Shown piece after piece: positions 19,721 through 47,719 of a stretch of 64,000 nucleotides of DNA. A model generated the notes under the pieces. That model searched no databases and was not told where the DNA came from. It saw only the letters and a list, made by a program, of their open reading frames with translations. The number at the start of each line of letters is the position of its first letter. The stretch's first letter is position 1. Position numbers and translations under genes: made by a program. Source of the stretch: Callorhinchus milii. Lineage: Eukaryota. The stretch covers positions 117,678,001 through 117,742,000 of the forward strand of contig NW_024704742.1 in the NCBI RefSeq assembly GCF_018977255.1, given 5' to 3'.

Positions 19721-19726
19721 AATAAA
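19721..19726 (+). terminator. Candidate polyadenylation signal AATAAA for AGGF1 (alternative at 19473-19478)
   Basis: Hexamer downstream of the AGGF1 stop; usage not determinable from sequence. Confidence 0.35.
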
Positions 19727-19884
19727 CCACGACACAGCCCTACCTACACATGTATTCCCATTATAGATCACCCCTTTGTCAAACATTGCACTGAATGCAG
19801 AACAAATTCAAAGGAAACTTAGATTCATGACTTTAGCATTTTACAAATACTACCAAGTTATAATGTACTATATATTTCTCACAT

Positions 19885-19890
19885 TTTATT
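19885..19890 (-). terminator. Candidate polyadenylation signal AATAAA for the KHDC4-like gene
   Basis: TTTATT on +, about 430 nt downstream of the stop codon. Confidence 0.5.
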
Positions 19891-20318
19891 TTACAGTTGT
19901 ACAATGAAATACACTAAATTCTTGCTCATTACAACATAGAAGATTGATGCACGAATCATGCTGATGCAAACTTTAGGTGGGGAAAATGGTATCTTTTTCT
20001 CCCCATTTGTCCTGCATTCTGAAATTCGTGCCTATGAAAGGCAATCTTTGAATTTACTCTTCACATTGCTGCAGTAGATGAAGTCCTGTTAAATAACAGT
20101 AGAGTATGGTTCTTCACAAGTTGGTGTGTATATACCTTTAGTAAAAATCCAGCTTTCATTGCTGAAGTCAGCCATTTGATACTGATGATCCTTATTGAGT
20201 ACAGGTGTAGTTGTATATTGGGTAAAGGTACTGTAGCTAGCAAAGACAGGTGAACAACTGAAGTTCAAACTGCACATTGTGAAGAGAATATTAAGAAAAA
20301 TGCATTTAAAACACAATG

Positions 20319-20620
20319 TTAATTGGGAGCCATCCAGAAGGGCATGGTATTGTGGGACCTTGGGAGAGCTTGCTGTTGCTGCTGGTGGTGAAGCTGCTGC
20401 TGGTGATGATGGTGCTGGGGGGGGTGGGGAGGATGATGTTGATTAGAATGCTGAAAATAGGGAGGGTACATATTGCGCGATGCATTTCCAGAATTCCTGT
20501 ATCTCCCCCCTCGCCTCTGCCTTTCTTCTTCCTCATCTGAAGAGTCCTCCCCATATTGGGCCAGCGCACCTAGGCTGTCACTCGTCTTCTGCCGTTTATG
20601 GCTTGGTGAAGAAGTATGAC
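20319..20620 (-). CDS. KHDC4: KHDC4-like exon 14 ([12 protein letters not shown]...[11 protein letters not shown]...MPFWMAPN*)
   Basis: tctgtag| acceptor; family C-terminal MPFWMAP; TAA. Confidence 0.95.
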
Positions 20621-23600: not shown

Positions 23601-26600
23601 TAATGGAGTGGAGTTGAGGAGGCATAGATACACAAGTAAACAAAGACCAGATAGATAATCACCGCTTCTCTGTATTTTCTAAACACACACGATGGGAGTT
23701 CTTCGGTATATTTTGCTCTTCAAAAATGTACATATAGGGGTACACAATGAAGAAAACAGCAACAACAGTCTTGATTTCAGACTTGCCAATGGACACCTGC
23801 ACATCACATCTATATATGACTCAATTCGCATCACAGAGCAAAAAAAACTTGTGCAGCAGGTGACCATAAGGAAGCCAAACTTTTTTTTTAATGAGACGAA
23901 TTGTTAGGACACTTACAAATTATTCATTTTAGTCAAGTTAAAAACTAATAAAAAACAACTGGAACCATAAAAAGCCTCCTCAAAAAGTCAGCCAGTTCCT
24001 CTGATAATTATTTAGGAATTCCTTCTGGAAATACCAGAAGAGAACCACCTAATGGTTGGCTTTGACTGGGTCAACATTCTCATCAAAGAGCCCAACGTGA
24101 ACATAGGGTACTACAGAATCATTGCCCCTAGATTCATTCACAAAGCATTGTACCCTGGCTTCAGGGGAGAAGAGTTATAGGAGAAAAAAAAATTCTAGTA
24201 TTGTTGAGTTAACCAATATGTATCAGTTGTTAATGGTTTAGGACATCCTAAATTGTAAAAAGAGCTGCACAAAGAAACCTAGAATTACAATTATGTATAG
24301 AGGTTCCTCACCTTGCATATTTAAAGAACGCAATACAGGCATCGAGGCTTCTGGCATTTCAGAATGATCTCCATGGTTGGACAGTGGGGGCATCAGCTGC
24401 CTGCAAGATATCAAACAAGAACAGGAATAATGATAGCAACAATATACATTTTTAGCATATCATGGCTTTTCAGTAGTGTTAAATGAAGAAATATTGCGAG
24501 TAGCACACAAGAAATCAAGCTTACCCTAACATTTGTATAGCGCCTTCCACATTGGAAGGCGCTATACAATGCCCAAGGCATTGGATAGTCAGTGATTTGG
24601 ACCCGAGCATGGGTTGGAATCGGAGGGGGTGGTGGTGGGGGGTTTTGGGGACAGTGGAGGGCAGAGAGGGTAGGGGTAGGAGGGTGGCCGAAGGCGTGGG
24701 GGCAGAGGAGGGTCTCGAGACACTATCGTGCACAAAGTGCAATATACCCGAGCCTGGGGGAGGAGATAGAAGATGGGGTTGGAAAGGTGGGGTGAGATAA
24801 CGGAGGGATTTGAAAGTGAGGATGAGGATCTTGGAATTTATTGAAGAGAAAGTCAAGTGAGTGACGATCTTACATACAAATACAGGAGTCAAAAAACAAG
24901 GTTCTGCATCAACTCGTGAGGTTGAGAGAGCATGAGTGCGGGTCAACTGAGTCAGCTCCTGAGATAAGCAGATTCTCAGTCTTTCTGACATTTACATGAT
25001 TTGAGGACAGAGGCGGAGACATAGTTGGAGGTCATCCTGTATATGTGGAAGTGGAATGAATGCATGCAGATGATTCACCGAGTAGGAGAGGACAAATGAT
25101 CTGTCAAATAACTGACAACTTTGGATTAATAAAGTGTAACTGTAATTACCTTTCTCTTCCCCTTCCAAAGAAGGTAGGATCAGCAGCAATCTTCAACCCA
25201 GAGCCCATATCCTGACTGCTCCTAGTACCTAGATTAGTCAAGTGAAATGGTCCGTGCTATGAGTAGAAAAAAGGCCACAGAGATCAACAGGCGTGATTGC
25301 ATACAATTCATAAAACAAATTTATAACTTATGAACACCAATATCAATTTTATTCTTGTAATGTAAACAGGATCTTAAGACCTCTTTAGCATTAGATGGGA
25401 ATCAATATGGAAGGGACGAACGAGGTGGTACAATAGCTTAGCTCATTTAATTTCTCTTCTGGAACCTCGGTACAAATCCAGCTCAAATTGATGGGATAAA
25501 AGTCCCTTCATCTGATGAGTATACACAAAATGGGTTGAAGCAGTCTTAGACAGGTTGTTAACTTGGTATGGGCCACACAAAACAAATAAACTTTTTTGGT
25601 GCTTTGTTAATCTCATTTAGTCAGCTATGGCTGATTGGCAAATGAAAAAAATTGAACACGCAATTTGGGCCTATTGATAGTATGGAGTGGAGAGGGCATT
25701 TTCTAGCTAACTATTACACTTGCCCTGGGAGTGTTTCATAATGACAAGTTATCTGAAATAGGAAAGTGATGCATTTTCCAGCAGCCACATAAATCATCAA
25801 TAAAATGAAAGTCAAAAGGAAATTCTAGTATTTTGATCGTCACTATACGTTTCAAACATAAATATTAAAAGTGAAGCTGTAGGCAGAACAGCTGCAGATA
25901 CTTTTAAGGTTCTGGCAATTGGTTTCTTACACTCAACTATTACAAGGTCACTGTTGCAAAATAATAATAATTCCATAATGCAGAGGTTCTCAAACTCCTG
26001 GGGGGGTGGGGGGGGGACATGGTTGTGCGCTAAGGGAAGCGGCGGTTACGTGCTTCCCAACAGTCTCAGGTGTCACAAGGCTGCTCTGCTCCCACATCCC
26101 GGTGGGGCCTCTCCCTTGATGTTCAGGACCTGCAATGGCACTTCCCCCAGTGGCTACGCCCTGCGACAGTGGGCTTCCCACAACAGCCAAACCCTGCCTC
26201 TAACTTTCAACACCACAACCCCAAATTCTACTATTTTGTACAATGAGGAGACAGGCTCACTCCTCTCACTGATAAGGTAGATAAATTTCCGCTGACAAAT
26301 ATTTTACTGCCATGGTCTGTAGTTGTTTGGTGGTGTGATTCCCAGGAGTGTTGGTGGTTTTGTTCTGGCTGCTGCAATTTGTGCTCTTTTTGGGCAGAAT
26401 AATGGGATAGCACAGAGGGTGCTTTGTGAAGTAAATTAGTGCTTTTGACTCTCATACTCAGTGTAACTGTATTGATCTGAGCCCTTCTACTTTGTTGCTC
26501 GTACTCTTGCGTAGTATGAGATTTTCGGGTTTTTGTGTTGTCTTGGTGGAGGTGCAATTGCTTTTTTTTTTGGCTTAGAGAGGCTCACTGTGACAAAGTT

Positions 26601-29600
26601 TGAGAACCCCTGCCAAAATGTATCTGAATTTTAAACCAACCCATTACAACAAAACTTACCCAACTTGGTAAATTTGAACAATTTGCATGAACAAAATATT
26701 TCCTTAAAAATCAGATAGATAATATATTAGAACATGGGGTTTAAAAATAATTTCTGAAACGTCAAACTAAGTCACCAATTTTTTTAATGCTATATGAGAA
26801 CTTTAGGAACCCTACATTTAAAGTTACATTGATGGATTGGAGAGGGCTTAGATTGGCAAGGGTGATTCCAGGATTTAGGGCTCTTAAATTATGAGGACAG
26901 ATTTGAGAAGAGGTAGTGGGATGTTCGCCAACAAATATACAGGCATTACACTTCACTGTAGAAATCCTTGGAGGACATAAAGGACTATATAAAATGCAAA
27001 GGTATATAAATTTATATATTTTTTTAAATGTTTGGTTATTTCATTTGAACAGTGAGGGCAGATCTAGGGAACAGGAATATAAATTAGCTTGCCTCAAGTA
27101 AGGCAGGATTAGGAGAAATTTCCTCACCCTTCCTGTGTATAGTGATCATGTGAAATAGATTTCCACCTGAAACAGCTGGTGCTGTGAGTGAATTTATTTA
27201 CAGAATAGGATGAGTATCTGATTAGGAATGGGTTTAATGATCCTAGGGATAGGTACAGATAAAAATGATTGAATGCTACGTGGCTGAATACTGAGTCGAG
27301 TTGCCAATTGCCACAGATGAAAGTGTAGGATGTAAGGTTAACATTATGCAGTATTGTTCAATTTACCTGAGGGCAAGGAGATACATGCAGAAACTTTCCC
27401 CAGGAAATTAAATAGGTTTGGTAGAATCCACACAGAAGTAATTAAACACGGTCTGAGGAAAGAACAGGCTAGATGGGCTTAGGCTTTTCTTGTTCTAGGT
27501 TTTCTTATGAAAAAAATCCATGTAGCGCTGTGCATTTCAGCAGAATACAACGCTATTATAACACTTGCATATGAAAGAAAATCACCAATAAATACAGCAA
27601 ATATAATGAGCTGCCTCATCTTCCGAATCCTTCATTATGTTCATTTTGTCCAGTCAAAATTGTAGAAATTTTAGGTCTTCATTACGTATGTTTGTCACGG
27701 AGATTGCAGAATAAATCCATTTGTCAAATTATCAATTTAAACCACAATGTTACTAAAACTTCTTTCTTATATACCTATACATGTAGAAAGTTCTCATGGA
27801 ATAGAATCTACATCAAGATTGAGTAATAATAGCTATGTTTCAATGTCTAATTATAAAACAAGATTCCATTTGAAACAAAACACAAGATTTGAATGGGATA
27901 AAGTTCAATATTCATAAATTCATGATTTTCAAGTTCGTCGGTAAACTAACCTCTCTCAATATCAAGCACTATACATAATAAATTCTCAATAAGAGCAAGG
28001 CGGTTCTAACAGTCCTGAACCCAAACAAATCCTGAAAAGGATTATTTTCAAATCTGATACATTAATAAAACAAATTTTCCCTAACCACAACTTTACCTCA
28101 TGCCAGCAGTATTAAATTCTAGTCTGTCCTTTTTAAGAGTCATTATTTCAGTTAGTTTGGTAAATCATTCTATCAAAATCTAACCTGACACAGCTACACA
28201 TTTAACAATTTAACAACAGTCACACAACGTGCAAACACTATTGTTGGTTTTATTATCTATCAAAATTAAACAGCATACAATGCTTTTTTGAAGTATGCAA
28301 GCAGATGTATTTTAAAGATTCACATTACCGCAGCAACAGTTATAAAAATACTTTAGTTGAGCTTTTTTTAAATTTCTCAAAATAACTGCATCATCACCTC
28401 CATAAACCAAAACAATTTCTGGCACAACAAACTGCACCTATCAACATTCTACAAATGTTCTTATCGCTTCCAATAAAAAAGACCTTGATCCATTTGCATC
28501 ATGCACTGCCCATTTTGTCTGTCAAGCTCTCTCCTTTCTGAGTTTCACCTATCGAGTCCTAAATGCACTACATTTAGTTATATTGGTGTAATTCTAGTGG
28601 TAGCTCCGAGCACGCACATTCTGAGCATACCTACCTGGTATCCAAGAAGTTCTTCTGGTGTATTGGCCATTCTCTCTTCTCTGAAACGTCTCTTTTGTGG
28701 TTGAGAGGACGACACAGGAGGTGGCATTGAAACAGGGTTATTAGTACTTGTGGCCGGGATCTGATACTCTGAGCTGGACACAGAGACTGGCATGGGGGCA
28801 GAGTTTACATGTTGGACCTATGAATAACCAACAGAATACTTAATTCTAGATCTGTAGATGAAAGAGTAGTTCTAACAATCCACACTAAAAAGCTGTCGAA
28901 CTCCAGTTTCTTTCCATTTCTATTGTCCCATTTCCCCACTAACTTAAGGTGAAATATAATTCTTTGGAGTGACAAATATTTTTAAAAGTCTATAAACCTC
29001 AAAATTTACAGTATATTCTGTGAAGCGCTTTGAGACATCTCAACGACATGGTAAGGCCCTATATCAAATGTAAGGATTTTTATTAACTTAACTTAAGATC
29101 CTTTCAAAATAAACATGCTCCAGTTATTTTTACTTGTCTGTATTATTACATTAGTGACACCATACAAATATGTCACTAATACAATCATAGGGAGCATTAT
29201 AGAGAGCACTAATGTGATCATAGGGAGTAGGGAGAAAAAAATCAATCAGAGTTTCTGCCCGTGAGCAGGATGTGAGCATGTTTGGACATCTGGTGAGAAC
29301 TAATTGGGATCAACTGCTATCCCCAAGTTAAATTACTTCCCAACACCCACTGTCAAACCTCAGATAAACAGTTAGGCAAGTTATCATAGGGTGACTGGAG
29401 CTGTACCCAAGAATTAAGAAAAAGGAGCCAAATTCCACAGTAACAATAATCCGTACATTTATTATAGCACCTTTCATGTCAAGAGGACATCCCAAAGTGC
29501 TTCATGGGATTTAAATTACTGTAGAGACTGTTTTGCGGTAGCCAATTTGTGCACAGCATGAAGTGAATGACCAATTTTATTTAGGGGATGGTTGGCCAGG

Positions 29601-35600: not shown

Positions 35601-38600
35601 TAATCCATATATAACCAATATTTGCATTCTGGTGTTGCAACATACTAGAATGGCCAAATAATGTTAACTTCCAAGATTATACACCTATCATCAACTCAAA
35701 ACACCATTTTACTATTAACATATTGTAACATTTCAATTAAGTTCCCTAAATATGTAAGGGATAATTAATGCATATTAATTTTTGATAAACCATTTAGGTA
35801 AATAGTAAGAACATATTCTTAAACAGCATTATAATATCAAATTTCTTTAATGATCATTAACAGATCCAAAAGATTCCCATTTACTGCAATGTGCTTATGC
35901 CCAATACAAAATCAAATCCAACTCAATCTAGAGTCATTTAAGCACTTGGCCTTTGGCACATCAGGGAACACTAACTATAAAATCGAAGAACCCTCTACTC
36001 ACCGTCTGAAGCAGGTTTTCGCACAATGTTTTTGCCCCTGCTAAACCTTCTGGCTTAGGATGGCTGTAAAAACAAGACATCAAAGGTACTTTAATAAACA
36101 GTAATACATATGATGAAGGACAATGAATTATTTAAATTTCTTTCTAATTTAATTGTTGAATAGTCACCTATTTTTCTGAACAAAAAACAGATACCGATTG
36201 GAAACGAGCTTAATTATGGCATAACTATTTAGAATAGGAATTGTAGCTCCTCTGAAGATTTGATGGATCAATTCAACAAACTCATGTAAGATTGAATTGG
36301 ATAGAATATAAAGGGCCAGGTTTGATCGCTAGTGTGTGCTGATGTAGCTGATCATAGCCAGAGCTCTTGTGGGGTCCCCATTGTCAGCAGTTTTCCCTCG
36401 ACAGGGGTGCATGGTAGGGAAGGCTTGAATGCTTTTCAGTAACCACACCTTTGTGGGCTGTTTCATTACTCCCATGTTCCAATAGCCTACCAACATCTAT
36501 CATCTTCATTCACTTAAGGAATGAAACTTGAACAAGGTAATGACGCCCATGGAACTGTACAGCAGAATGGGACACTGCTGGAGCCCAAAAGAATATTGAA
36601 ATGAAGAAAGGAAGCAACAAACATGGCGAGCAGACAACAGAAAAGCAGGGACGGTTTTAATTTTTTTCCACGGACCAATAATATTTGTGATAAATTGGAC
36701 AGCTGTTTTCAAAATTCACTACAACCTTCCCCAACCACTGCACTAGACTTTGTAGAAGAAGTATAACTTACGTGATATAAATATACATCGGTTCAAATGC
36801 TTCTCTTCCAGATGTTGGCTCAATGAAGCCTGATCCTTTGCCCCTGAGATGAACTTTGGCCCCTGTTTCATTCTGAATATGGTGCAGATAGGAACCTCCT
36901 GGGCCTTCCACTTTTTCTTTTGCATTGAAAGTAGGAGCATGCTCCAGACCGACAAAGATTTTGTCCTGAACAAAATGCATCTGTAAAAAAAGAGTTGAAT
37001 TTAAATAAAAAATCCAATATCAGCATTAAATGCAACACTATTCATATTCCTCTCCATCCTCATATCTGAATGTTTTCAGTACATTTGCAGGAATGCATCA
37101 AACTTTTTTTGGTAGAAATACTATTCATTTAAAGTTAAAAGTAATATTATTGCTTTATGCAATATACACAATGTTATGTTTTATATTATCCCAAATGAAT
37201 GCATTTTGACAAGGTTATTCAAAAAGGCCACAGGATTATTAATGTGTAAAACTAACTAGTGAATTTGGTATTAAAATTAAATAATTTGAATAAAACATAT
37301 ACAATATCAGGAATTTGCACTTTGTTGTCTTTCAATCAGGAATTCTATACAATGAGAAATCACAAATTGAACTATTATACACCAGGTTTAAGCCTTAAGT
37401 ATTTTTAACTGTATAATAGTTTTTTTTATTCCCATCACTTTTTTTAAAAAAAATGCAATGTTACAAACCACTTATAAGCCCGTCACAATAAATCCAGTTT
37501 AGCCAATATCACCTACCCCTGGCTGTAACTGAGGCAAGGAATTGTATGGAGAATGGTTATGTGAAGTCATGGAATTGCTCCTTGCAGTAGACGTTACTAC
37601 AAGTGGAAGAGGTTGTTTGATGGCTTCTTTTGCTAATGCCTCACCAATAATTTCCTTGATCCTGTTTACGGCTCCTAAAAGGAGGAAAGATATTCAATAT
37701 CTTACCTCACACATTCGTCCCAGTGGAAATTGTACACAGCTGATTAATTTCAAAAGAATCAAATATGAAATATTTCCAAACTATTTCTAACATAATTGAA
37801 GATATTAATGCAGCGTTTGTACTGCATTATTTAACAGCAAATCACCACAAACATGCAGTGTAAATTCAAGTTGAGGCAGTGCAGATTGCATTGGAGCCTC
37901 ACTCCCAACACCACTTCAGAGGTGTTTTCACCTGTATGATTTACGCCTGCAGAGTATAGAAATGCACTGAATTTCAATCACATTGGGCTCAGTCACCATA
38001 ATCTATTGAAAACTCAATGGACAGCGCAGGAACTTTCAACAGATTTTTCAAAAAAGCCAAGTGTTAACTGTTTTTTTACATTTAAAACTAACACCAGATT
38101 TTGATGTTCTGTACATGCTCTTAGACTGTGCATGTGCTGAAGACCAAAATCAGGCAAACAATGTTGAGCATTTACTCTACCAATGTACAAACAAATCACG
38201 GCAATTACTTTACATCTGCTAAGCTTTCATTATACTGGTGCAGAAATGCAAAATATTTGCAAGTCTCAAGAACCTATAGAAAAGTGCGATCCCTGATTTT
38301 TTTTATTGTAAATTATACAGCATTTGTTTAGGTAAAGGTGTAAACGATTCCCAACAGCACCTTTCCTGGCCATTGAGTGTTTGTATGCCGTATGAAGTTT
38401 CCACATCTAGAATAATACCCTTCAAATTACGAAACTTTACTTCTCAAATTCAAGTTAGAAAATGCCTGGTGGCCCCCATTCCCCCAAGTATTTCATGTTG
38501 ATATCCAGAAAGTTAATTATAAAAGTACACAGTTTGGGACCAGTTTCCATTCAAATATCCAGAATTATTTTATTCCAGAATAACCATGATAGGCATAAAA

Positions 38601-41600
38601 CTAAAATAATGTTTTTCAGGTGTTAAAGGCAGTTACAAATCAAACGGTCCTAGTTCAGAAAATCAAATCATAAACCATCTAGTGTATAAATTCTGAACAT
38701 TACAATAATGAAAGATATCTTGCTAGTATTTCGGGTACACAATGTGAGCAATTATGTGGTAAAAACTATATATACTAGCATCAGTACCCAGGTGATACAG
38801 AAGAATTACTGAATTTTAGTCACAATAAAATTAAACAAGTAGTATTTTCAGCATTTCTTACTGTCCACGCTGTCCTGCGTCTGGGCCTGTATGCAAAGGT
38901 AGAGGGGTCGATCCCTAAAAAAAAATTAAAATTAACTTAAAAGCATTTAAACTACTCTTCAACTACACTAACAGTAATACAGTAAAAATGTGTGGATTAC
39001 CACAAATGAACACTTTTGGCCTTTTTGTTACCAATTGACTGCCAAACTGCTACCAAACAATTACAAATTTTGCCACATATTCCTAAATTACAACAACTAA
39101 TAGAACTTGCATTTTAAATTAAGATTCACAAAACATTTTATTTGCCCGTGTTAGTGAGTTAGGCACTAACGACAGAGTTAAACAAAGAAAACCATTTTGT
39201 GAATACGGTGCGAGTACACCCAGAACCTATTAGTTCTCATGGTTCCAACTTCTGATGTTCATTCATGTTGAAAGCTTGAGAACCAGAACTTCCTGCTGCT
39301 CTGGAGGATTTAGTGAGAGACGAGCTGCTGGTAATTTGACTTTGACACCCACCTCTTTCACTGAGCTAAACAAAATGTCATCTTAGCAAACTTACTGACT
39401 AACCAAAGGCTAAGTATAGTTCTGTTTAAATTCCAAAACATTGTGGAATCTATTTGCATCTCAAAATAGCTGTTCAATAAATCACAAATATTTTGGAACA
39501 TTTAATCAAAGGACACTTATCCCTTAAAACATTTATTTTGTCTAAAGCAATACAATTACTTAAAAAAAAGATTTCTTATTAAACTGCAACAGTAGTGTAT
39601 TCCTTACCCTTGTACAGCCATCTGCTTCTCTTCTACTGTCATGAAACGCCCTCTAGTGGAAACAGCAGCACCACTGATCTTATTTATCTACAGAAAAGAA
39701 CACATTAAATAAGAAGTGTCATAAACATGCAAGACAGTATTAAAAACTGTTTCCACATTACTAATTTATTCTATATGTTTCTAATCATAACTGATTGACT
39801 AAACAAGAGGCCAAAATAAGGGCTCATTAAGAGTGCAGCAAATGACACCAGCCATGCAAGGATTTCCTACTATAAAAATATAAAATCACAATATGCCAAC
39901 ATATGTCTTATTCAATTAATCAAATACAAAATAAGGACATGATGTTTGCACTGCTATCCAACAACTGGGGATTGAATAGATCTTTGCAACTATTCAAAAA
40001 CACGAGTAAACCCTGAACTTGAAAAGCAATACTCATCATACAGTGAAATTCAGTTAAATGAATACTCAATTTGACAGCAAAAAATGATTCATTAATTTAA
40101 CTGGACTACATATAAGAGGAGCCTCGTCTCCCAGAACTCAAGCCATTTGGCCTCCAACCACACTGGAACCAAAAGCACTCTCCTCCACCAATCAGACCCA
40201 TCCACACTCATACGTGGCCAATCGACCAATTGCCCGCAACCTCTCTGGGGAGTGTAGGAAAGAGAGGGGATGATGAAGACGTTCACGCTGTATTGTAGAA
40301 GGCAGTGATTTGGGACTGTGCATTTATCCTGACTCAAGATTAATTGTTTTTATACAAATGGTCACAGGGAAAATTATTGAATAAGCTTAATTATTCATAT
40401 ATCCAATATTCAATTAACTGATCTGCATTCTTAGATTAGGTGTGGAAATTGTTTTGGATTTCTACTTTCTATTCAATAAACTTAACTATTCAAATATCCT
40501 ATATTCAATTAACCGAATTTCAATGCATTGTTAATTTAGCAGATATTTGCTCACTTAATTTACTAGAACAGAATTGCATCACAAATTTGCTTTAAATTTC
40601 TGTAACAAGCTAAATATGCTAATCTAATTATTCAAAATGTATAACATTCATTGTTTACCTCATCTTGAGTATGGCCTCTGGTCAGCAGATTTCTACAGAC
40701 AATAGGAACATCATTTATTTCAATCTCAGCCACCACCATATCATCTTTGTTCTTTAGATGGGACATCAATTTTGAAGGCATCATTGACTGGAAGGAAAAT
40801 ACTTTTAAGTAATCAGTTCAAGAGAACAAATAGGTTAGACCAAATTACAGAACAGCTCTGCTACTATTACAGTAATCAATTACTTATCTGGAGTAAAGAA
40901 AGACAAATTGATTGATTCCTAACTAAGCAGAAGAATGTATGCCTCAACAAGAAAAAGATAGCCAGTGTGACTCAAACCAGAATAACAGAGGGAGCTGAAT
41001 GTTTTTCTCATTCTACCGTCTTATTCTCTTTAAATGAAATGTAGTTTTGCATTCTTTACAAGGATTTATTTTAGCAATAATAATAATAATAATCCTTGCA
41101 TTTGATATAGCGCTTTTCACGTCGGGAGGACGTCCCAAAGCGCTTCACAGAACACACTGTAAAGTGAATTGACTGTATATTTGTGGGCGAACGCGGCAGC
41201 CAATTGCGCACAGCAATGTCCCACAAACAGTCGTAGATTGAAAATGACCAATTTTTTTTATTATTGTTTTTTGGTTTTTTTGGAGGGATTATTATTATCT
41301 TGTTGATACTCGTCAACAAGGTGATGTCTCACCACTGTAATCAACTTAACAACTTAAGCAAGACAACTTGGAAAGTATTGTTTCCCCAGTTCACAAGTAA
41401 CTAGAGCCAAGCATGATAAAATCAAACTGTCTTCCTTCACAGCAGACTGCCCAACCAACCCAGTTCCGCCCCCACCACCCCACGCTTTTGAATTAGAATA
41501 TACAATGAATAGCTGCTGCCCACTCTCATTAATTTTTTATATATTTGTAGTTACAGTCCCCAACAATTTATACTTAAATTAAAACCTTTCAGATAGGCTA

Positions 41601-44600
41601 AATTTCTCAAAGCATTTATATAGCACTTATCATTTAGGATGAATGTCCTCAGTGGCTAATCAGGAAATTTCAAGTGAGAAATAAAGTATGAAGATGTTCT
41701 CTAACACTAATCAACAAAATGTCCAATCTCCAGATCAATTCCTCTACAATTCCAAAATAATGTTTTCAGATCTCTTAAAAAGAGAGTTCTTGGGGCTCAT
41801 TTAGGGCAATAGCAAAAGTGAAGGCTCACTGGCATGGACTTGTTGGGCCCAATGGCCTTCTTCCATGCATATATATCATTCTATGTAATTCCCTACAATT
41901 CAACTTGTAGCTGTTTCTGGAACCTTGCTAATAGCTCCCTATAAACTCAGTTACCATACTTGACATTAATTACCTATGAAGCGCTTCTGAGTTTTCAACT
42001 GACAGAAGACTCTAAAAATGCAGGTTCTCTCTTTCAAAAGCAAAATCAATTTCCAAATTGTTTAGCAGTTAAGACACTCAATTCACATTGTTGTATTAAT
42101 ACATATATTTACAGCTGGAAAATACTATATGTAAGTCAGGAGTCCTGTTCAATTGTTCAAACATAACCCTTCCACTAGATTTTTTAAGTCATTAAACTTT
42201 AAGCCTTTAGATCATTTTGTTATGATGCATATCTATTGAAACCAGAGATATCCAGTAGGTACACCAAGAATTCTGAAGTAGAAACTGTTCAAAGACTGAC
42301 ATATTGATAGAGACTCACAAGTGACTCCTTGCTAGAAAGTGTAAGTTGTGTAAGTGTCAGGTGAGGACAGGATAAGGCTCAACTGTGATAAGCACCTTAA
42401 AATAGCCTGCCAAGACTCACAGTTGAGGTACAATTGTGAATAATTACCCTGTGGGATTGTGTTGGTGCCGTCCCAACACCTGTGTAACCTATGCCCCAGT
42501 AGAAGTCTTCAAGGAACGGGGAAAAGAAGTGATGGGATAAATATTGGCAGAATAAAATAATTCATTACTTACTCGGTTTTCCCTGCCACTTGGAGTCTGT
42601 GGTAGCTTTAGTTTCCCTTTTGCCATCAACATGGCATTAATTTTGGCAGCGGCAGCAGCAGCTGCCCCTAAAGCTTCTGATGAGGATTGAGGAGACTGGC
42701 TGACTGATGAAGACATAGAGGAAACTCCACCATGAACCCCAACTTGCGAGCCCGCTGAAGGAAAACTATTCATCTGAGACTCAATTTGTCCTGCCATCAA
42801 CCCAGGAGTTGGTTCTGGACGATCCCATTTACTACGACGCCTGCAAAGACAAAAAGAACATATCAGCTTTGTTTGTTAATACAGCTATATTCATTAAAAC
42901 AATTGGCCCCAATCATGCCTTCCACAATATGACAGATTATTTTGAGTATCTTAAACTTGAAAATATTATCTGTTAATAACCACCCAGAAGTAAATGGTCA
43001 GACCACAATTTGTTCACTCAAAGTATTCAATTCTCTTCACCCAACATTATAGTTTTCATCAATAACTTGCCACATAGAGGGAGGAGGGAAGGCGTGGTAC
43101 TGTAAGCTACCCCTTAATAAGTTCTTTGTAGAAATAACTAATTTGGCAAATTTATAGGATCACTCATTTTACTTTAATTTTTTCTTGTTACAGGATGGGG
43201 TTTACTTTCACAACCTCGACTCCAGGATCACTGCTGTCTTAACGAACTGTCTATCAGACATGAAGTCCTGGATGAGAGCCAATTTTTTTCAGTTAAATGC
43301 AGACGAGAACAAGGCCCTCCCGTCAGCAGCGCCTCACCTCAGGCACTGACTGCATCACTATTTAGGAATGCACTCTCCACCTCAAAAGTACAGAATCTAG
43401 GTACCTTGTTCAACCCTCAACTATCTTTTAAATCCACATTGCACCATGACCCATTCTGCCTTTCCCCACCTCCACAACTACCCCTCCCCTCGGGCCTCCG
43501 AGATCCTCATCCATGCTTTCACTACATCCCGGCTTGACGAAGCTAACTGCCTGCTCGCCAGAGTTCCCTCCACAAGTTGCAGATTATTCAGAACTCCACA
43601 GCTCAGGGCCTCTCCTGCATCAAGCTCCGTGAGTTGATCACTCCAATTCTCACACACCTTTACTGCCTCCCCATCCCCAAAGGTTCGTATTAAGATCCTC
43701 ACTTATAAAGAGCTCCACAGTCTTGCTCCTTCCTACCTCTGTGACCTACTGAAACATTACCAACCTATCCACTCCCTTCACTCAACTGACACTGGCTCGC
43801 TCCATGTACCCCGTCCTGCCTGCACTACTATCAGCGGTCTCTTTCTGCCCTGACTTTGTGGAACTCCATCCCAGAAACCCTCTGCCTCGCCCCCTCCCTC
43901 ATCTCCTTCAAGGCCCATCTTTGACAGCGCCTTTGGTCATCCTCTTACGTCCATCCCCCTCGACTCCAATACCGAGCTTGGGTGCAAATCCTTAACTGTC
44001 GGTGCCTTGGGATGTCTTCCCAACATAAAAGACACTATAAAAATGCAACTTCTTGTTGTTCTAAAAAGCTATTTCTCATAAGTGTAGGTTAACTTGCTAA
44101 TTTTCACAGGTAATCGAGGCATAATTGGTACAATTTTCCTCCCAAACAGTTTTCTAATCGCATACATTGACGAACTCAAAATTCTGAAAAAATTGTTGCA
44201 TGTATGTTTCCATTTTTAGTACCAACGCATTGGAATTATAAACATTACGAAATATGTTTTAACACCACCATCTTATTGGTAAGAGAACAACACCTTTCAA
44301 ATTTCTATTTAGTAAGCTTGTTTAACCACACCAACCATATGCTACTACTCCTGATGTTGTACAAGCCACCATTTATTTTTATAGTTGGGCAGCTAAACAC
44401 TGACTAATATGCTGGGGTTAGTACCTTTCCCACTCTCTGGGAAGGTCCACAAAACCTTACTATATACCGCATTTTCCGACTTGGTCAAAGCAGAGCATTT
44501 TAGCCACTTCGTTTGGTTATCAATGCTTGGCATCTATCCAGCTGTAAGCAACAAGTAGCAAGTTCACACAGCTTAGCAGTTGTGCCCTTCAGTAGCAGGA

Positions 44601-46072
44601 GTGACACCAACAATTTACAAGAGGCAAACATTGAACAAGAAGGTGCAACAAAGTAATAGCTAAAACACTGAATTAACAAAGTTAAACTCTGATGGAGGGA
44701 CATAGCTGAATAGTTAACCTATCTTTCACTTTTATAATAATTCTAGCATTTGATATAACACCTTATTACGTCTTCGAGACATCTCAAAGCGCTTCATAGA
44801 ATATACTGTAAAATGAATTGACCTGCATATTTTGTGGGAGAAATGCAGCAGTCAATTGCACACAGCAGTGTCCCACAAACAGAGAGATCAATTTTTTTTA
44901 AAAAAAGGAATTATCACTGCCGGAAAAGCAATCTGCCAATCATTAATAGCCGGTTTCCTACTTACGGCTAGGTAAACAGAGGTGTGTGGAATAAGGAAAC
45001 TTGCCCAACGTTTTGCCCTGCCAGGAATCAAACCCAGGTCTCTCACTTAATAATAATAATCCTTGCATTTGATATAGCGCTTTTCACGTCGGGAGGACGT
45101 CCCAAAGCGCTTCACAGAACACACTGTAAAGTGAATTGACTGTATATTTGTGGGTGAACGCGGCAGCCAATTGCGCACAGCAATGTCCCACAAACAGTCG
45201 TAGATTGAGAATGACCAATTTATTATTGTTTTTGGTTTTGGAGGGATTATTATTAGGCTCTGTGTGGAGTAAGGAAACTTGCCCAAGGTTTCGCCCTGAC
45301 CTGCCTGGGATTGAACTCAGGTCTCTCGCTTGCAAAGCAAGTGCTCTAACCACTGAGCTACACCTTTTATAATGGAACGTTTCAAAAACTACTGAAACTA
45401 TAAATCTATAGCAAAGTGTTAGTTTAAAACGGAAATAGTGCTACAGAATCACAACGTCATCCCATGGCGTACTCGAACATGGGTCCGAGGATATAAAACA
45501 GTGAAGAAAATCTAACAAAATGTACCATATTAACAATCAAGTGTAAGCAGTAATACTGAGTAGCCACTGTTCAACATTCGGACAGCAACTTATTAATATA
45601 TGAACTCGACGATAGCAGTAATAATCCTTGCATTTGATATAGCACCTTATCGTGTGGGAGGAGACGTCTCAAATCGCTTCACAGATTATACTGTCAAGTT
45701 GTTTGACTGCAGTTTGTGGGCGAAGCGCAAAACGAATCCCCCACCCCCAACCCCCAAAAAAAAAAAAAAAATCAAAATCGATCACCACGATCAGGTAAGC
45801 ATTTCAATACACGATGGTGAAACACGAGAATATTTCCGCTCGATGACATTTTATAGCGCGGCTGAGCTGCACGTCGGAAGCTGCAAAGGGGATTGACAAC
45901 CCACACGGCCGTTTGTCCTCGCATGAAACCGGACCGAAACGCATTCGAGATCAACATAGCAACAGCGAGAGCTGCGAACAGCAAAATCTTCTGGAAGGTG
46001 GTGGAGGAGCGAGCGACAAAAACACAAAACAAACTCGGGCGCGAAGTTGTTCAGATTGAACGCGAGTACAAC

Positions 46073-46103
<31 letters not shown>

Positions 46104-46761
46104 CTCTCTCTCGTTCTCTGCGACATTTTGAATCCCTCCTCCTCCCTTGAGTTACAGTTGGCAAAGTGAACATGGCTGTGAGAGAAAACGAGGTCACGCA
46201 CCGAGGGAGAGACGACGCCGCGCTCCCTCGCCGCCCCTGGTGTATCCCCCCCCCCGGCCGGAGCGGGCCGGGCCGGGCCGGAGCCGGGCCGGGGGCCCGC
46301 GGTGTACGTGTGTGTGACTGGCGAGAGGTCGCGTTGCTCGGAGCTGACGGCGTTTCCCCCTCAGGCCGTCAGGACACGGCCGAGGCTGCAAATCTCATCT
46401 CCCCGCCGCTGCCCGGCCCTGGGCCGCGACAACTCGTTCGCGCCTTTTACGCTCCCAACAGGCGCCGCCTGGGGCCTCCGCGCCGGCGCGGGCCTGGCCT
46501 AGGCCAAACCTCGACCTGACTCGATCCCCGGGCCGGGCCGAGCCGGGCATGGCCACCGCATCGACGCCGCCTTCTTCCAAATAAGCGTCTCTGCCGAGGA
46601 GGCGACCACACGCCGGTCCCCGGCCCACAGCGTGTCCGCCCACCCCACCACCGCGCCCCGGCGGCCCCGCTCGATCAATCGCCTTCGGTACAAAGCGCGG
46701 AGGAGGCCGTGTTCAGTTGAGGCACTTACCCCGCAGACTGCGGCGAACCCGCTGCCGACAT
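20319..46761 (-). CDS. KHDC4: KHDC4/BLOM7/KIAA0907-like KH-domain splicing factor, complete, 14 exons; complement(join(20319..20620,24312..24400,25150..25256,28635..28817,33972..34309,35477..35537,36003..36063,36772..36980,37517..37674,38862..38914,39608..39687,40659..40787,42573..42840,46730..46761)), 689 aa; possibly a paralogue rather than the orthologue of human KHDC4
   Basis: 2070 nt open frame over GT-AG introns. Family motifs: [141 protein letters not shown]. Confidence 0.95.
24312..24400 (-). CDS. KHDC4: KHDC4-like exon 13 ([10 protein letters not shown]...SLNMQ)
   Basis: cttgcag| ... AAG|gtgagg. Confidence 0.9.
24520..25090 (-). mobile_element. Degenerate L2 fragments
   Basis: [13 protein letters not shown] motif and an L2-type tail. 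Confidence 0.7.
25150..25256 (-). CDS. KHDC4: KHDC4-like exon 12 ([15 protein letters not shown]...GRGRER)
   Basis: ctcatag| ... AG|gtaatt; HGPxHxTNLG family motif. Confidence 0.92.
25981..26612. mobile_element. hAT-Charlie-type MITE
   Basis: TIR CAGAGGTTCTCAAACT / AGTTTGAGAACCCCTG; TSD CCATAATG / CCAAAATG. Confidence 0.85.
26800..27510 (+). mobile_element. Old CR1-like 3' fragment
   Basis: Degenerate 'attccagga..ttaaattatgaggacaga' and 'agatctaggg..ataaatta' segments with a CR1-like tail. Confidence 0.5.
28635..28817 (-). CDS. KHDC4: KHDC4-like exon 11 (VQHVNSAP...[10 protein letters not shown]...LLGYQ)
   Basis: ttcatag| ... CAG|gtaggt. Confidence 0.92.
29450..29840 (-). mobile_element. 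Deu-domain SINE
   Basis: Colinear with 8595-8950. Confidence 0.8.
29825..30043. repeat. Minisatellite, about 6 units of ~36-40 bp
   Basis: Unit TGAGCCRGGCTGACACACAGRCTGGGAGAGGGGAGAY. Confidence 0.9.
30257..30386 (-). ncRNA. SNORA47: Intronic box H/ACA snoRNA, SNORA47-like
   Basis: Sense to the host. Hairpin 1 is GGAGGA-[UUGAGAA]-AGUGAUACAGC/GCUGCAUUUACU-[GGUGAAC]-UCCUCC. H box AUAUUA (30325-30320) lies 14 nt from the pocket top. Hairpin 2 has AAUAGUG/CACUAUU and UUCUAC/GUAGAA stems. ACA (30262-30260) is followed by 3 nt; total 130 nt. The family name rests on recalled similarity to human SNORA47. Confidence 0.85.
30858..30963. repeat. 53-bp tandem duplication
   Basis: Two copies with 2 mismatches. 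Confidence 0.95.
31599..31907 (+). mobile_element. Full-length tRNA-SINE
   Basis: Same family as 112-428. Confidence 0.92.
33972..34309 (-). CDS. KHDC4: KHDC4-like exon 10, P/Q/S/Y-rich low-complexity region
   Basis: ttttcag| ... CAG|gtaaga; open in the required phase. Confidence 0.88.
35477..35537 (-). CDS. KHDC4: KHDC4-like exon 9 ([20 protein letters not shown])
   Basis: cccgaag| ... CAG|gtattc; an alternative same-phase donor 15 nt further (exon end 35462) is possible. Confidence 0.85.
36003..36063 (-). CDS. KHDC4: KHDC4-like exon 8 ([20 protein letters not shown])
   Basis: tttacag| ... ACG|gtgagt. Confidence 0.95.
36772..36980 (-). CDS. KHDC4: KHDC4-like exon 7 ([14 protein letters not shown]...[26 protein letters not shown]...PMYIYI)
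   Basis: tttacag| ... AC|gtaagt; second KH domain. Confidence 0.96.
37517..37674 (-). CDS. KHDC4: KHDC4-like exon 6 ([10 protein letters not shown]...QLQPG)
   Basis: cttttag| ... GGG|gtaggt. Confidence 0.93.
38862..38914 (-). CDS. KHDC4: KHDC4-like exon 5 ([17 protein letters not shown])
   Basis: tttttag| ... A|gtaaga. Confidence 0.95.
39608..39687 (-). CDS. KHDC4: KHDC4-like exon 4 ([27 protein letters not shown])
   Basis: tctgtag| ... GG|gtaagg. Confidence 0.95.
40659..40787 (-). CDS. KHDC4: KHDC4-like exon 3 (SMMPSK...[29 protein letters not shown])
   Basis: cttccag| ... GAG|gtaaac. Confidence 0.95.
41075..41297 (-). mobile_element. tRNA-SINE 3' part (young subfamily)
   Basis: Near-identical to 45048-45250. 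Confidence 0.9.
42573..42840 (-). CDS. KHDC4: KHDC4-like exon 2 (RRSKWD...[19 protein letters not shown]...ENR)
   Basis: tttgcag| ... CGA|gtaagt. Confidence 0.95.
43205..44060 (+). mobile_element. L2 3' fragment
   Basis: Colinear with 870-1590 and the L2 tail. Confidence 0.85.
44734..45362 (-). mobile_element. Two adjacent tRNA-SINE copies (44734-45047 and 45048-45362)
   Basis: Two (ATT)n tails and cores; the second copy has the tRNA head. Confidence 0.88.
46430..46635. repeat. Copy 1 of a ~200-bp direct duplication (copy 2 at 47226-47426)
   Basis: Near-identical sequence caactcgtt...cccacagcgtgt at both sites. Confidence 0.95.
46730..46761 (-). CDS. KHDC4: KHDC4-like exon 1 CDS ([11 protein letters not shown])
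   Basis: ATG inside the CpG island; donor GG|gtaagt; phase 2 matches exon 2. Confidence 0.85.
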
Positions 46762-47225
46762 AGTGAAGCCTCTCCCCCCGCGCGAGCCGGGACTGCGCAA
46801 AACTCACTGACGTCAGCGCGCACGCTGCCTCTGTGCAGCAACAATAACAACGAGGGACGTCAGCCGTGCGTGCGCCGTGCGTGCGTGCGTGCTCGCGCTG
46901 GCTGGCTGGCTGGCGGGGCGCACGCGCATGCGTGATTCAGGAGCCCTGTCTCGAGTTACCAGCGTCACTGACAGGTGCCTCGAGTCACAAGGTCACCAGG
47001 ACTGGTCTGGATAGAGAAGGCTCTTCAGACCATCCGATCTTGTCCTGGCAGAGCCCACACCATCATTACATCAAGACACTTCTTAAATTAGCAGTGTTTC
47101 ATGTCTGGGTGGGTGCGGGTCGCCACCCAGTGACTTCAGCTCGGTCTGTCTGGGCTGGTGCTCCATCATTACAGCTCCTCCATCCAGAGCAGCACTGAGC
47201 CCTCAACGGTGCCCTTTCCTGAGGG

Positions 47226-47426
47226 CAACTCGTTTGCGCCTTTTACGCTCCCAACAGGCGCCGCCTGGAGCCTCCGCGCCGGCGCGGGCCTGGCCTAGGC
47301 CAAACCTCGACCTGACTCGAACCCTGGGCCGGGCCGGGCATGGCCACCCCATCGACGCCGCCTTCTTCCAAATAAGCGTCTCTGCCGAGGAGGCGACCAC
47401 ACGCCGGTCCCCAGCCCACAGCGTGT
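47226..47426. repeat. Copy 2 of the ~200-bp direct duplication
   Basis: See 46430-46635; a few substitutions and one 5-bp indel. Confidence 0.95.
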
Positions 47427-47719
47427 GTGTCCCCCGCGCCCTGAGAAGCTGTTACACAATCGCCTGCAAAATACACAATCGTTAAACATTGTACGTCCTG
47501 AGGAGTGCTTTGAGGTGGCCTCCCCACATGAAATCCGCTGTATCACATGTTAAGATAATTATAATTATTATTATGATAAAATCTGAAGCAGGGACTTTCA
47601 CTTAGTGTCCTGGCAAGCAATCCTTCAGGTTAATTGTTCAATGACCTTATTGTCATGCATGAACTAGCGGCAGTGTTTCCTGCAAAAAAGCAATGTTTAT
47701 TATTAACAAGCAAAAAAAA

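What the first reader, a model, noticed from the sequence alone, without database searches (positions are those of the whole stretch)
20319..46761. Intact KHDC4-like gene tail-to-tail with AGGF1: candidate lost ohnologue and ancestral occupant of the mammalian ZBED3 locus
Seen: a complete 14-exon KHDC4-family gene convergent with AGGF1, carrying a SNORA47-like snoRNA. Recalled, to verify: human KHDC4 is at 1q22. Human AGGF1 is at 5q13.3, followed on the opposite strand by ZBED3, a domesticated hAT BED-finger gene hosting SNORA47. 1q22 and 5q13-14 are paralogous WGD blocks (IQGAP3/2, MEF2D/C, BCAN/VCAN). The protein also departs from human KHDC4 in normally conserved stretches ([15 protein letters not shown] vs recalled LYLHVQGQTRELVDR). 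Inference: this is a second vertebrate KHDC4 paralogue kept in cartilaginous fish. On the mammalian lineage its coding exons may have decayed while the transcription unit survived for the snoRNA and was later colonised by a transposon-derived ORF.
Basis: partly seen in the sequence, partly recalled or inferred. Interest (0 to 1): 0.9.

Follow-up and report, generated by a model that had tools for sequence, protein, structure and literature searches.

The report
Ancient KHDC4 twin hosting SNORA47
This cartilaginous-fish gene beside AGGF1 is an ancient extra copy of the splicing factor KHDC4, not found in bony vertebrates, and one of its introns carries the small nucleolar RNA that in mammals sits at the same chromosomal spot inside the transposon-derived gene ZBED3.

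Summary
The minus strand at 20319-46761 carries an intact, expressed 14-exon KHDC4-family gene. It is identical to Callorhinchus milii KHDC4 records and lies tail-to-tail with AGGF1. Intron 10 holds a SNORA47 H/ACA snoRNA, the only above-threshold SNORA47 in this genome.

It is not the orthologue of human KHDC4. Sharks carry two genes: type A groups with human KHDC4, and type B is this one. B is found only in cartilaginous fishes (13 named species). It falls outside A plus a third, ray-finned clade C. AU tests reject B+shark-A (p 0.0002) and B+C (p 0.005).

B shares a chromosome with AGGF1 in 8 of 8 chondrichthyans checked. IQGAP-type and PDE8-type genes flank the locus here, as around human ZBED3.

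By the literature, human SNORA47 sits in ZBED3, downstream of AGGF1. A barn-owl interval holds AGGF1, SNORA47, PDE8B and non-coding RNAs, with no ZBED3 listed.

So the paralogue reading is supported. That ZBED3's transcription unit descends from this gene fits position and snoRNA content but was not tested.

Type A is absent from this assembly. This may be an assembly gap: TRAP-beta and a third IQGAP are missing too.

The parts
20319..46761 (-). KHDC4-type B gene ('KHDC4-like'), start codon to stop codon, 14 coding exons, 689 aa
   Evidence: exact reconstruction of P0002/P0003; spliced contigs
46730..46761 (-). coding part of exon 1 (ATG at 46761)
42573..42840 (-). exon 2 (RRSKWD motif, Ala-rich helix)
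40659..40787 (-). exon 3 (start of first KH domain, PF23469)
39608..39687 (-). exon 4
38862..38914 (-). exon 5 ([10 protein letters not shown] motif region)
37517..37674 (-). exon 6
36772..36980 (-). exon 7 (second KH domain, PF22675)
36003..36063 (-). exon 8
35477..35537 (-). exon 9
33972..34309 (-). exon 10 (Pro/Gln-rich region)
28635..28817 (-). exon 11 (cassette exon: skipped in isoform X2, P0003)
25150..25256 (-). exon 12
24312..24400 (-). exon 13
20319..20620 (-). coding part of exon 14 with stop codon (ends ...MPFWMAPN)
19748..20318 (-). 3' UTR as far as contigs reach
   Evidence: contigs end at 19748, 19753, 19924 and 19928
30257..30385 (-). SNORA47 H/ACA snoRNA in intron 10. The Rfam match covers 30283-30385. 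The fold gives a 5' hairpin, H box AUAUUA, a 3' hairpin, then ACA followed by 3 nt, ending near 30257
27531..27634 (-). second, diverged SNORA47-like copy in intron 11 (29.5 bits, below the gathering score). The 5' hairpin is shared with compensatory stem changes; the guide and the 3' half differ
46001..48000 (.). GC-rich (0.58) stretch around exon 1, the presumed CpG-island promoter
   Evidence: the promoter role is inferred
5351..18963 (+). 3' part of AGGF1 (residues 286-716 of P0392; G-patch exon at 18153-18314), convergent neighbour

Best explanation
The gene is a functional member of an ancient third lineage of the KHDC4/BLOM7 family of KH-domain pre-mRNA splicing factors, called type B here.

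B split from the lineage leading to human KHDC4 (type A) before jawed vertebrates radiated, most likely in the early vertebrate genome duplications. In the databases searched it is found in cartilaginous fishes only.

The gene has two products. Its mRNA encodes a 689-aa protein with both KH domains and the family's terminal motifs. Its intron 10 releases the H/ACA snoRNA SNORA47, which in human and frog guides one 28S rRNA pseudouridine.

The gene sits between AGGF1 and a PDE8-type gene. In placental mammals that slot is held by ZBED3, the present host of SNORA47. A bird interval lists SNORA47 with non-coding RNAs there. So the snoRNA has stayed at one locus while its host gene changed.

Shown here: gene structure, expression and splicing, family membership, tree position, linkage to AGGF1, and the uniqueness of SNORA47 in this genome. 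Inferred: the protein's splicing function (by family), release and activity of the snoRNA, the genome-duplication origin, and loss in bony vertebrates.
For: Structure and expression. Domains PF23469 and PF22675 both score above their cut-offs.

Two types in sharks: among the best 120 of 411 hits, 17 entries from 13 named chondrichthyan species are type B, and 4 named species have type A. Heptranchias and Heterodontus have both. No bony-vertebrate protein is B-like, either there or among the best 150 of 1242 hits in the 1.84-billion representative library, where B is represented by a single 82%-identical cluster.

Careful tree (37 rows x 534 columns): B 100/100, A+C 98/95, A (shark + bony) 96/86, cyclostomes+(A+C) 93/87. 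AU tests reject B+shark-A (delta lnL 40.7, p 0.00017) and B+C (delta lnL 23.7, p 0.005). A tree on the KH core alone keeps B (99) outside A+C (98).

Constraint: Callorhinchus B is 75-82% identical to elasmobranch B over about 680 residues, against 42-44% to shark A.

Type A lies on 8.6-22 Mb contigs instead. In this genome an IQGAP-type gene lies 273 kb upstream and a PDE8-type gene 132 kb downstream. A second IQGAP+PDE8 pair lies on C22.

SNORA47: 2 matches in the whole genome, both in this gene, one above threshold. No SNORA42 or SCARNA4 signal in the gene.

Literature: SNORA47's host is ZBED3, and KHDC4 hosts SNORA42 and SCARNA4 (PMC6466398, passages). ZBED3 lies 'downstream of AGGF1', with orthologues in cow, pig, mouse and sloth only (PMC3606216, passages). 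Barn-owl interval (PMC13748587, passage). Frog SNORA47a lies on chr1 with target 28S-U1411 (PMC6984369, supplement rows); frog AGGF1 is on a 217-Mb contig.
Against: Only one KHDC4-type gene is found in this assembly, so both types are not seen side by side in this species.

B has a long stem (0.55), C a longer one (0.84), and the cyclostome rows are long too. The AU test shares the model's pull between long branches, and I named the tested groups after seeing quick trees.

Whether B split before or after the cyclostome divergence is open: gnathostome monophyly is not rejected (p 0.20). C's place is unstable, sister of A but nested in A.

'Not found in bony vertebrates' rests on predicted proteins only; decayed or unannotated copies would not be seen.

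No small-RNA data show the snoRNA itself. My search for an rRNA site complementary to its 5' pocket gave no more hits than the control.

The PDE8-type gene was told from other PDE families, not PDE8B from PDE8A.
Confidence: 0.8

Rival explanations
1. B is a cartilaginous-fish-specific duplicate of KHDC4 that diverged fast. Its basal position in the tree would then be a long-branch artefact.
For: B has a long stem (0.55) and is confined to chondrichthyans. treekit warns that long branches meet.
Against: The AU test rejects B+shark-A (p 0.00017). B evolves slowly within the clade, with end branches of 0.005-0.05. It has the full 14-exon structure, so it is not a retrocopy. It encloses SNORA47 at the locus where literature lists place SNORA47 in pig, human and barn owl (PMC4201535, PMC8836216, PMC13748587), which a late duplicate landing there would have to do by chance.
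Confidence: 0.06
2. B is the orthologue of the ray-finned 'KHDC4-like' clade C. The second paralogue would then be lost only in lobe-finned fishes and tetrapods.
For: B and C are both long-stemmed second copies beside A, and gar, bichir/reedfish and sturgeons each have A plus C. Long branches could hide a B+C clade. C's position is unstable.
Against: The AU test rejects B+C (delta lnL 23.7, p 0.005). A+C is supported at 98/95 and at 98. C and AGGF1 have different contig lengths in 6 of 6 teleosts checked: Paramormyrops, Brienomyrus, Denticeps, Chanos, Anguilla rostrata and Osmerus mordax. Teleost rearrangements could still explain that last point.
Confidence: 0.1
3. It is the single KHDC4 orthologue, simply moved next to AGGF1 in this lineage.
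For: Only one KHDC4-type locus is found in this assembly.
Against: Sharks hold both types. The gene groups with shark B, not with A. It lacks SNORA42/SCARNA4 signals and has SNORA47 instead. The assembly also lacks TRAP-beta and a third IQGAP, so the block that should hold type A may be unassembled.
Confidence: 0.02

Closest known systems
KHDC4 / BLOM7 (KIAA0907), the KH-domain pre-mRNA splicing factor of human and other vertebrates (type A)
   Same: Same two Pfam domains in the same order (PF23469, PF22675). Shared N-terminal RRSKWD and Ala-rich motifs, shared QKRRF, LLGYQHGP and DSSDEE motifs, and the shared MPFWMAP end. Both are multi-exon genes that host H/ACA RNAs in their introns.
   Different: A separate ancient lineage: 42% identity over the full-length alignment (56% over the N-terminal ~380 residues) to primate KHDC4, and outside A+C in the tree. 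Different conserved residues in the KH regions, for example [10 protein letters not shown] and [17 protein letters not shown]. It hosts SNORA47, whereas the human gene hosts SNORA42/80E and SCARNA4 (PMC6466398). It lies beside AGGF1.
ZBED3, the mammalian host gene of SNORA47
   Same: Same slot downstream of AGGF1 and before a PDE8 gene, and the same intronic snoRNA family (PMC3606216, PMC6466398, PMC8836216).
   Different: ZBED3 encodes a BED-finger protein derived from a hAT transposase, reported only in placental mammals (PMC3606216). No zf-BED match lies near this locus: 12 matches genome-wide, the nearest on C1 at 33.19 Mb. The coding sequences are unrelated.
ZBED6 in ZC3H11A intron 1 (also ZBED2 in CD96 and ZBED1 in DHRSX): domesticated BED genes riding inside host transcription units
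   Same: A precedent for a BED open reading frame living inside an older transcription unit (PMC3606216 Table 1 passage; PMC2780926 abstract seen).
   Different: For ZBED3 the paper lists 'intergenic'. A pre-existing snoRNA host unit there is my inference, not something the paper says.
Mammalian lncRNAs that are fossils of ancestral protein-coding genes (Hezroni et al. 2017, PMC5577775)
   Same: The same kind of process is proposed: a coding gene kept in other vertebrates and a non-coding transcript at the syntenic place elsewhere.
   Different: This locus is not in that paper. [quoted passage not shown] Here the end point in mammals is a new coding gene, not only a lncRNA.

Membership tests
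KHDC4/BLOM7 protein family | N-terminal KH domain of the KH_12 type (PF23469) | tested here: met
   P0002 residues 119-199, 90.7 bits against a cut-off of 27
KHDC4/BLOM7 protein family | KHDC4/BBP-like type I KH domain (PF22675) | tested here: met
   P0002 residues 256-329, 137.9 bits against a cut-off of 30
KHDC4/BLOM7 protein family | Role in pre-mRNA splicing | not testable with these tools
   Inferred from family membership only
Orthologue of human KHDC4 (type A) | Groups with tetrapod KHDC4 to the exclusion of other vertebrate paralogues | tested here: not met
   A (shark A + bony) 96/86 and A+C 98/95 both exclude B. B+shark-A rejected, p 0.00017
Orthologue of human KHDC4 (type A) | Hosts SNORA42/80E and SCARNA4, as the human gene does | tested here: not met
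   No match to either family in 19000-48000 at E up to 1. SNORA42 copies lie on C21 and a weak SCARNA4 match on C24. This feature also varies between taxa: in frog the two lie about 105 Mb apart (PMC6984369 supplement)
Ohnologue (paralogue from the early vertebrate genome duplications) | The duplication is older than the split of cartilaginous and bony vertebrates | tested here: met
   Type A contains both shark and bony sequences and excludes B
Ohnologue (paralogue from the early vertebrate genome duplications) | The copies lie in paralogous chromosome blocks | tested here: inconclusive
   The B locus lies in a block with IQGAP-type and PDE8-type genes that has a twin on C22. The block holding type A could not be read in any genome. 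The 1q22/5q13 paralogy is recalled
SNORA47 (Rfam RF01234), H/ACA snoRNA | Score at or above the family's gathering score | tested here: met
   52.6 bits against 45, E 4.4e-08. The intron-11 copy does not meet it, at 29.5 bits
SNORA47 (Rfam RF01234), H/ACA snoRNA | Hairpin, H box, hairpin, ACA layout with ACA 3 nt from the end | tested here: met
   The fold of 30240-30386 gives two hairpins, AUAUUA between them, and ACA followed by AGU after the second. The z-score is only -2.0
SNORA47 (Rfam RF01234), H/ACA snoRNA | Guide pocket complementary to the 28S target (human U1766, frog U1411) | tested here: inconclusive
   A site built from my reading of the 5' pocket gave 133 hits against 149 for the control, with none recognisable as rDNA. 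The pocket borders, wobble pairs and the presence of rDNA in the assembly are all uncertain
Intronic snoRNA host gene | The snoRNA lies on the sense strand in an intron of a spliced transcript | tested here: met
   The snoRNA is on the minus strand inside intron 10. The joint 28815|33970 across it is seen in 4 of 4 laid runs
ZBED3 | BED zinc finger (PF02892) | tested here: not met
   None of the 12 genome-wide matches lies near C1:117.68-117.74 Mb

The most novel reading that the evidence does not exclude
The promoter, 5' non-coding exons and SNORA47 intron of mammalian ZBED3 descend directly from this KHDC4-B gene.

In bony vertebrates the coding exons decayed, but the unit went on being transcribed and spliced because SNORA47 needs an intron. 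Bird non-coding RNAs beside SNORA47 would be that stage. In the ancestors of placental mammals a hAT-derived BED open reading frame settled in its 3' part.

ZBED3, listed as an 'intergenic' integration, would then be a fourth ZBED gene that entered an existing transcription unit. The locus would show one snoRNA outliving two successive coding hosts.
Probability: 0.4. Interest if true: 0.75.

Novelty: new member of a known kind. Interest (0 to 1): 0.6.

Why it matters
The gene itself is already in public annotation, as 'KHDC4' or 'KHDC4-like'. I found nothing in print recognising it as a separate, ancient family member confined to cartilaginous fishes. A full-text search for KHDC4-like, khdc4l, khdc4a or khdc4b found 0 papers.

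It matters in three ways.

1. Annotation. The Callorhinchus record called KHDC4 is not the orthologue of human KHDC4, and vertebrates have up to three KHDC4 lineages (A, B, C).

2. A concrete, testable case of a snoRNA staying at its locus while its host changes, from a coding gene to a probable non-coding host to a domesticated transposase gene. This bears on how snoRNA host genes and some lncRNAs arise.

3. A reason to re-read ZBED3's 'intergenic' origin.

It is a well-supported evolutionary case history, not a new kind of system.

Tried and rejected
1. Second KHDC4 in this genome. Searches with the KH exon and with shark type A P0117 at E up to 10 found only the window's locus, plus one chance-level hit on C16. 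I do not read this as loss. TRAP-beta gave 0 candidates, and only 2 IQGAP loci were found.

2. SNORA42 cluster on C21 as a relic of type A. tblastn with 9 KHDC4 proteins over C21:4935001-4995000 gave nothing better than E 2.7. I rejected this as far as it was tested, and did not identify the cluster's host.

3. RIT1 as a landmark. The best RIT-like exons lie on C1 at 128.47-128.51 Mb. RIT1 cannot be told from RIT2 there, so I did not use it.

4. Pfam scans. I scanned 97 + strand ORFs in 1-20300 and 130 ORFs on both strands beyond 46800. They found only the G-patch, reverse-transcriptase fragments and chance-level hits. The GC-rich patch at 56-58 kb is a CR1-like repeat tail, not a gene start.

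5. RNA runs. No listed holder is on record as RNA. The laid contigs are spliced, which shows mRNA, but nothing could be said about the snoRNA itself.

6. Guide-target test: 62+71 hits against 79+70 for the control, so no signal.

7. Frog SNORA47b. It lies on chr8, the chromosome whose length matches the contig of frog KHDC4. But it is 4.9 Mb from scaRNA4 and on the other strand, so I could not place it in khdc4.

8. Earlier scan notes. There were none for this place, one unrelated fungal note for 'KHDC4', and none for 'SNORA47'.

9. Papers. PMC13736004 (snoRNA-host evolution, 2026) has 0 occurrences of SNORA47, ZBED3 or KHDC4 in its main text. I did not look at its supplements.
Full report
WHAT IS THERE

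The window is G000:C1:117678001-117742000 of a 991.5-Mb genome.

A protein that UniRef names KH homology domain-containing protein 4 of Callorhinchus milii (P0002, 689 aa) maps at 100% identity, or nearly so, onto the minus strand in 14 pieces between 46761 and 20319.

A script that searched GT/AG boundaries gives 14 coding exons and a 2070-nt CDS. Its translation equals P0002 except I344L. Omitting exon 11 (28635-28817) gives NCBI isoform X2 (P0003) exactly.

The gene is expressed and spliced. In 3 of 4 laid runs (2 studies), contigs of 2134-2395 nt join the exons across all 9 introns inside 19000-38999, with CT..AC ends (GT..AG on the minus strand). They carry a 3' UTR down to 19748. The runs are not on record as RNA. 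The spliced form and the single genomic locus are what show mRNA.

The protein has both family domains, PF23469 and PF22675.

NEIGHBOURS

The + strand ORF 18153-18314 is a G-patch. Its best protein hits are Callorhinchus AGGF1, on a contig of 139,202,109 bp, which is the length of C1. AGGF1 residues 286-716 map from 5351 to 18960. The two genes are therefore convergent: their stop codons lie 1.36 kb apart, and the 3' ends of the transcripts lie within about 0.8 kb.

Beyond the GC-rich stretch around exon 1 (GC 0.58), Pfam found only repeat fragments.

PDEase exons lie on the + strand 132-135 kb past the window. One exon scores 130 bits to PDE8A, against 72 or less for other PDE families.

IQGAP-type exons lie 273 kb upstream. 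The only other IQGAP locus is on C22, which also has the other PDE8-like locus.

No BED finger lies near the locus.

THE snoRNA

Rfam SNORA47 matches 30283-30385 (-) at 52.6 bits (gathering score 45), inside intron 10.

Folding 30240-30386 gives a 5' hairpin with an internal pocket, AUAUUA as H box, a 3' hairpin, and ACA followed by 3 nt. The RNA therefore probably ends near 30257 rather than where the Rfam alignment stops. The z-score is only -2.0.

A second copy in intron 11 (27531-27634, 29.5 bits) shares the 5' hairpin, with compensatory changes in the lower stem. It differs in the guide and in the 3' half. It is a diverged duplicate or a pseudogene.

In the whole genome these are the only two SNORA47 matches.

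The gene shows no SNORA42 or SCARNA4 signal at E up to 1.

WHICH KHDC4 IS IT?

A search with the KH exon listed the best 120 of 411 hits. Two kinds of cartilaginous-fish proteins stand out.

- Type B: 17 entries from 13 named species are 91-100% identical to this exon (one, Mustelus, 85%) and 67-89% identical to P0002 overall. They are mostly named 'KHDC4-like'.
- Type A: entries from 4 named species (Heptranchias, Heterodontus, Carcharodon, Pristis) are 80% identical in this exon, 42-44% overall, and carry the human-like motifs.

Heptranchias and Heterodontus have both types.

The exhaustive representative search found 1242 hits at E up to 0.001, with the best 150 listed. It supplied hagfish, lamprey, amphioxus, acorn-worm and scallop sequences. 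It also supplied a ray-finned 'KHDC4-like' group, clade C. A further search widened clade C to bichirs, sturgeons, gar, bowfin and most teleosts.

TREES AND TESTS

I chose 37 of about 510 stored proteins for the careful tree: 8 B, 5 shark-side A including the unnamed P0124, 9 bony A, 10 C, 2 cyclostomes and 3 outgroups.

The careful IQ-TREE run (LG+C20+F+G4 by PMSF, 534 columns) gives:

| Group | Ultrafast bootstrap / SH-aLRT |
|---|---|
| Vertebrates | 99/98 |
| B | 100/100 |
| Cyclostomes+(A+C) | 93/87 |
| A+C | 98/95 |
| A (shark A + bony) | 96/86 |

AU tests:

| Group held together | Delta lnL | p-AU |
|---|---|---|
| B + shark-side A | 40.7 | 0.00017 (rejected) |
| B + C | 23.7 | 0.005 (rejected) |
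| All jawed-vertebrate sequences | 6.3 | 0.20 (not rejected) |

A quick tree on the KH core only used 33 rows and 285 columns, dropping the two bichir-type C rows, P0124 and Pristis A. It keeps B (99) outside A+C (98), but nests C weakly inside A.

Robust conclusion: B is a separate lineage, older than the split of cartilaginous and bony vertebrates.

Still open: whether B split before the cyclostome divergence, and whether C is a duplication twin of A or a fast offshoot of it.

Caveats: the stems of B and C and the cyclostome rows are long, and I named the tested groups after seeing the quick trees.

LINKAGE IN OTHER SPECIES (INDIRECT)

The protein tables give the length of the longest contig that holds each protein.

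- AGGF1 and B share that length in 8 of 8 chondrichthyans where both are listed: Callorhinchus, Heptranchias, Cetorhinus, Heterodontus, Rhincodon, Hemiscyllium, Narcine and S. torazame. In S. torazame the locus tags are consecutive, scyTo_0002815 and scyTo_0002816, on a 723-kb scaffold.
- Type A lies on contigs of 8.6, 9.4, 10.3 and 22.1 Mb.
- Clade C and AGGF1 have different lengths in 6 of 6 teleosts checked.

Equal length means the same chromosome, not adjacency.

COMPARISON WITH WHAT IS KNOWN

A review table gives ZBED3 as the host of SNORA47 (target 28S-1766). It gives KHDC4 as the host of SNORA42 and SCARNA4 (PMC6466398, passages seen).

Hayward et al. list ZBED3 at chr5:76.37 Mb as 'Intergenic (downstream of AGGF1)', with orthologues in cow, pig, mouse and sloth. 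ZBED6, ZBED2 and ZBED1 lie in introns of ZC3H11A, CD96 and DHRSX (PMC3606216, passages seen).

A figure legend and text place ZBED3, SNORA47, ZBED3-AS1, PDE8B and WDR41 together next to AGGF1 (PMC8836216, passages). A pig table lists F2RL1, S100Z, CRHBP, AGGF1, ZBED3 and SNORA47 in one interval (PMC4201535, passage).

In the barn owl, a 0.9-Mb interval holds AGGF1, CRHBP, F2R, IQGAP2, PDE8B, WDR41, SNORA47 and two uncharacterised non-coding RNAs. The list contains no ZBED3 and no KHDC4 (PMC13748587, passage). The paper does not say which transcript hosts SNORA47.

In Xenopus tropicalis, snoRA47a is on chr1 (-) with target 28S-U1411 (PMC6984369, supplement rows). Frog AGGF1 is on a 217-Mb contig.

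The chimaera order IQGAP - AGGF1(+) - B(-) with SNORA47 - PDE8(+) thus matches the amniote order, with B in the place of ZBED3. That ZBED3 is on the strand opposite to AGGF1, and the chromosome bands, are recalled, not checked.

HOW IT MOST LIKELY WORKS

The gene makes a KH-domain protein of the BLOM7 family. Its role in splicing is inferred from the family.

Splicing of intron 10 releases the precursor of an H/ACA snoRNA that guides one 28S pseudouridine. This is inferred from the Rfam match, the fold and the conserved target in human and frog.

B is strongly constrained: 75-82% identity between chimaera and elasmobranchs, and very short branches inside the clade.

WHAT REMAINS CONJECTURE

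It remains conjecture that the bony-vertebrate SNORA47 host, and later ZBED3, is the same transcription unit with decayed B exons.

The idea fits the position, the snoRNA, the bird list and the habit of ZBED genes to sit in host units. But no genome outside this one could be read here.

The locus is not among the 'fossil' lncRNAs of Hezroni et al. [quoted passage not shown] I found no paper naming a KHDC4-like paralogue. The searches cover only the held library.

MISSING TYPE A IN THIS ASSEMBLY

Type A is not found. Neither is TRAP-beta (0 candidates) nor a third IQGAP, so the block that should hold it may be unassembled.

P0124, an unnamed record with no organism given, sits as sister of elasmobranch type A (99/98).

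VERDICT

The paralogue reading is supported and sharpened: there are three lineages, and B is found only in chondrichthyans. The ZBED3 descent is plausible but untested.

Noticed in passing
G000:C21:4956854-4971550 (-) and C21:5130072-5130211 (+); loci L018, L019: A tandem cluster of six SNORA42/SNORA80-type H/ACA snoRNAs lies within 15 kb: four above the gathering score (76.7-88.7 bits) and two just below. A seventh copy lies 160 kb away. In human this family sits in KHDC4. Here no KHDC4 exon relic is detectable around it. Frog has a similar triple cluster on chr8 (PMC6984369 supplement).
   Followed up: partly
whole genome G000: There is no TRAP-beta (SSR2) signal at all, and only two IQGAP loci (C1 and C22). 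With the missing type A KHDC4, this suggests that the block corresponding to the human KHDC4 neighbourhood is absent from this assembly.
   Followed up: partly
proteins P0141, P0277-P0281, P0144, P0289 and many teleost entries: Ray-finned fishes carry a second KHDC4 lineage, clade C, with a very long stem. Gar, reedfish and sturgeons have both A and C. Most teleost proteins named KHDC4 or KHDC4-like fall in C, not with human KHDC4.
   Followed up: partly
Xenopus tropicalis chr8:109789735-109789867 (+), xenTro9.1 (PMC6984369 supplement): Frog has an extra SNORA47 copy, snoRA47b, with no human counterpart. It lies on the chromosome whose length matches the contig of frog KHDC4, 4.9 Mb from scaRNA4 and on the other strand. 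Its host is unknown to me.
   Followed up: partly
window 114-185, 7466-7538, 15951-16022, 31601-31672, 55306-55377 (+) and 45305-45360 (-): These are tRNA-Ala-like elements (Rfam tRNA 38-61 bits; ARAGORN anticodons TGC or CGC), scattered through introns and spacers. The bins around 29.0-29.7 kb and 31.0-32.3 kb have contig depths in the hundreds to tens of thousands, as expected of tRNA-derived SINEs rather than tRNA genes.
   Followed up: no
window 360-896 (+), 55981-56175 (+), 57021-57716 (-), 59307-59660 (+): Fragments of reverse-transcriptase (RVT_1) ORFs and a CR1-like ORF tail. The GC-rich patch at 56-58 kb is repeat-derived, not a promoter of the next gene.
   Followed up: partly
window 28635-28817 (-): Exon 11 (61 codons, Pro/Ser-rich) is a cassette exon. 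It is present in P0002 and in the laid contigs, and absent from RefSeq isoform X2 (P0003).
   Followed up: yes
G000:C24:9252257-9252392 (+), locus L015: The only SCARNA4-like match in the genome, at 42.9 bits, below the gathering score of 60. It is on a different chromosome from the SNORA42 cluster.
   Followed up: no
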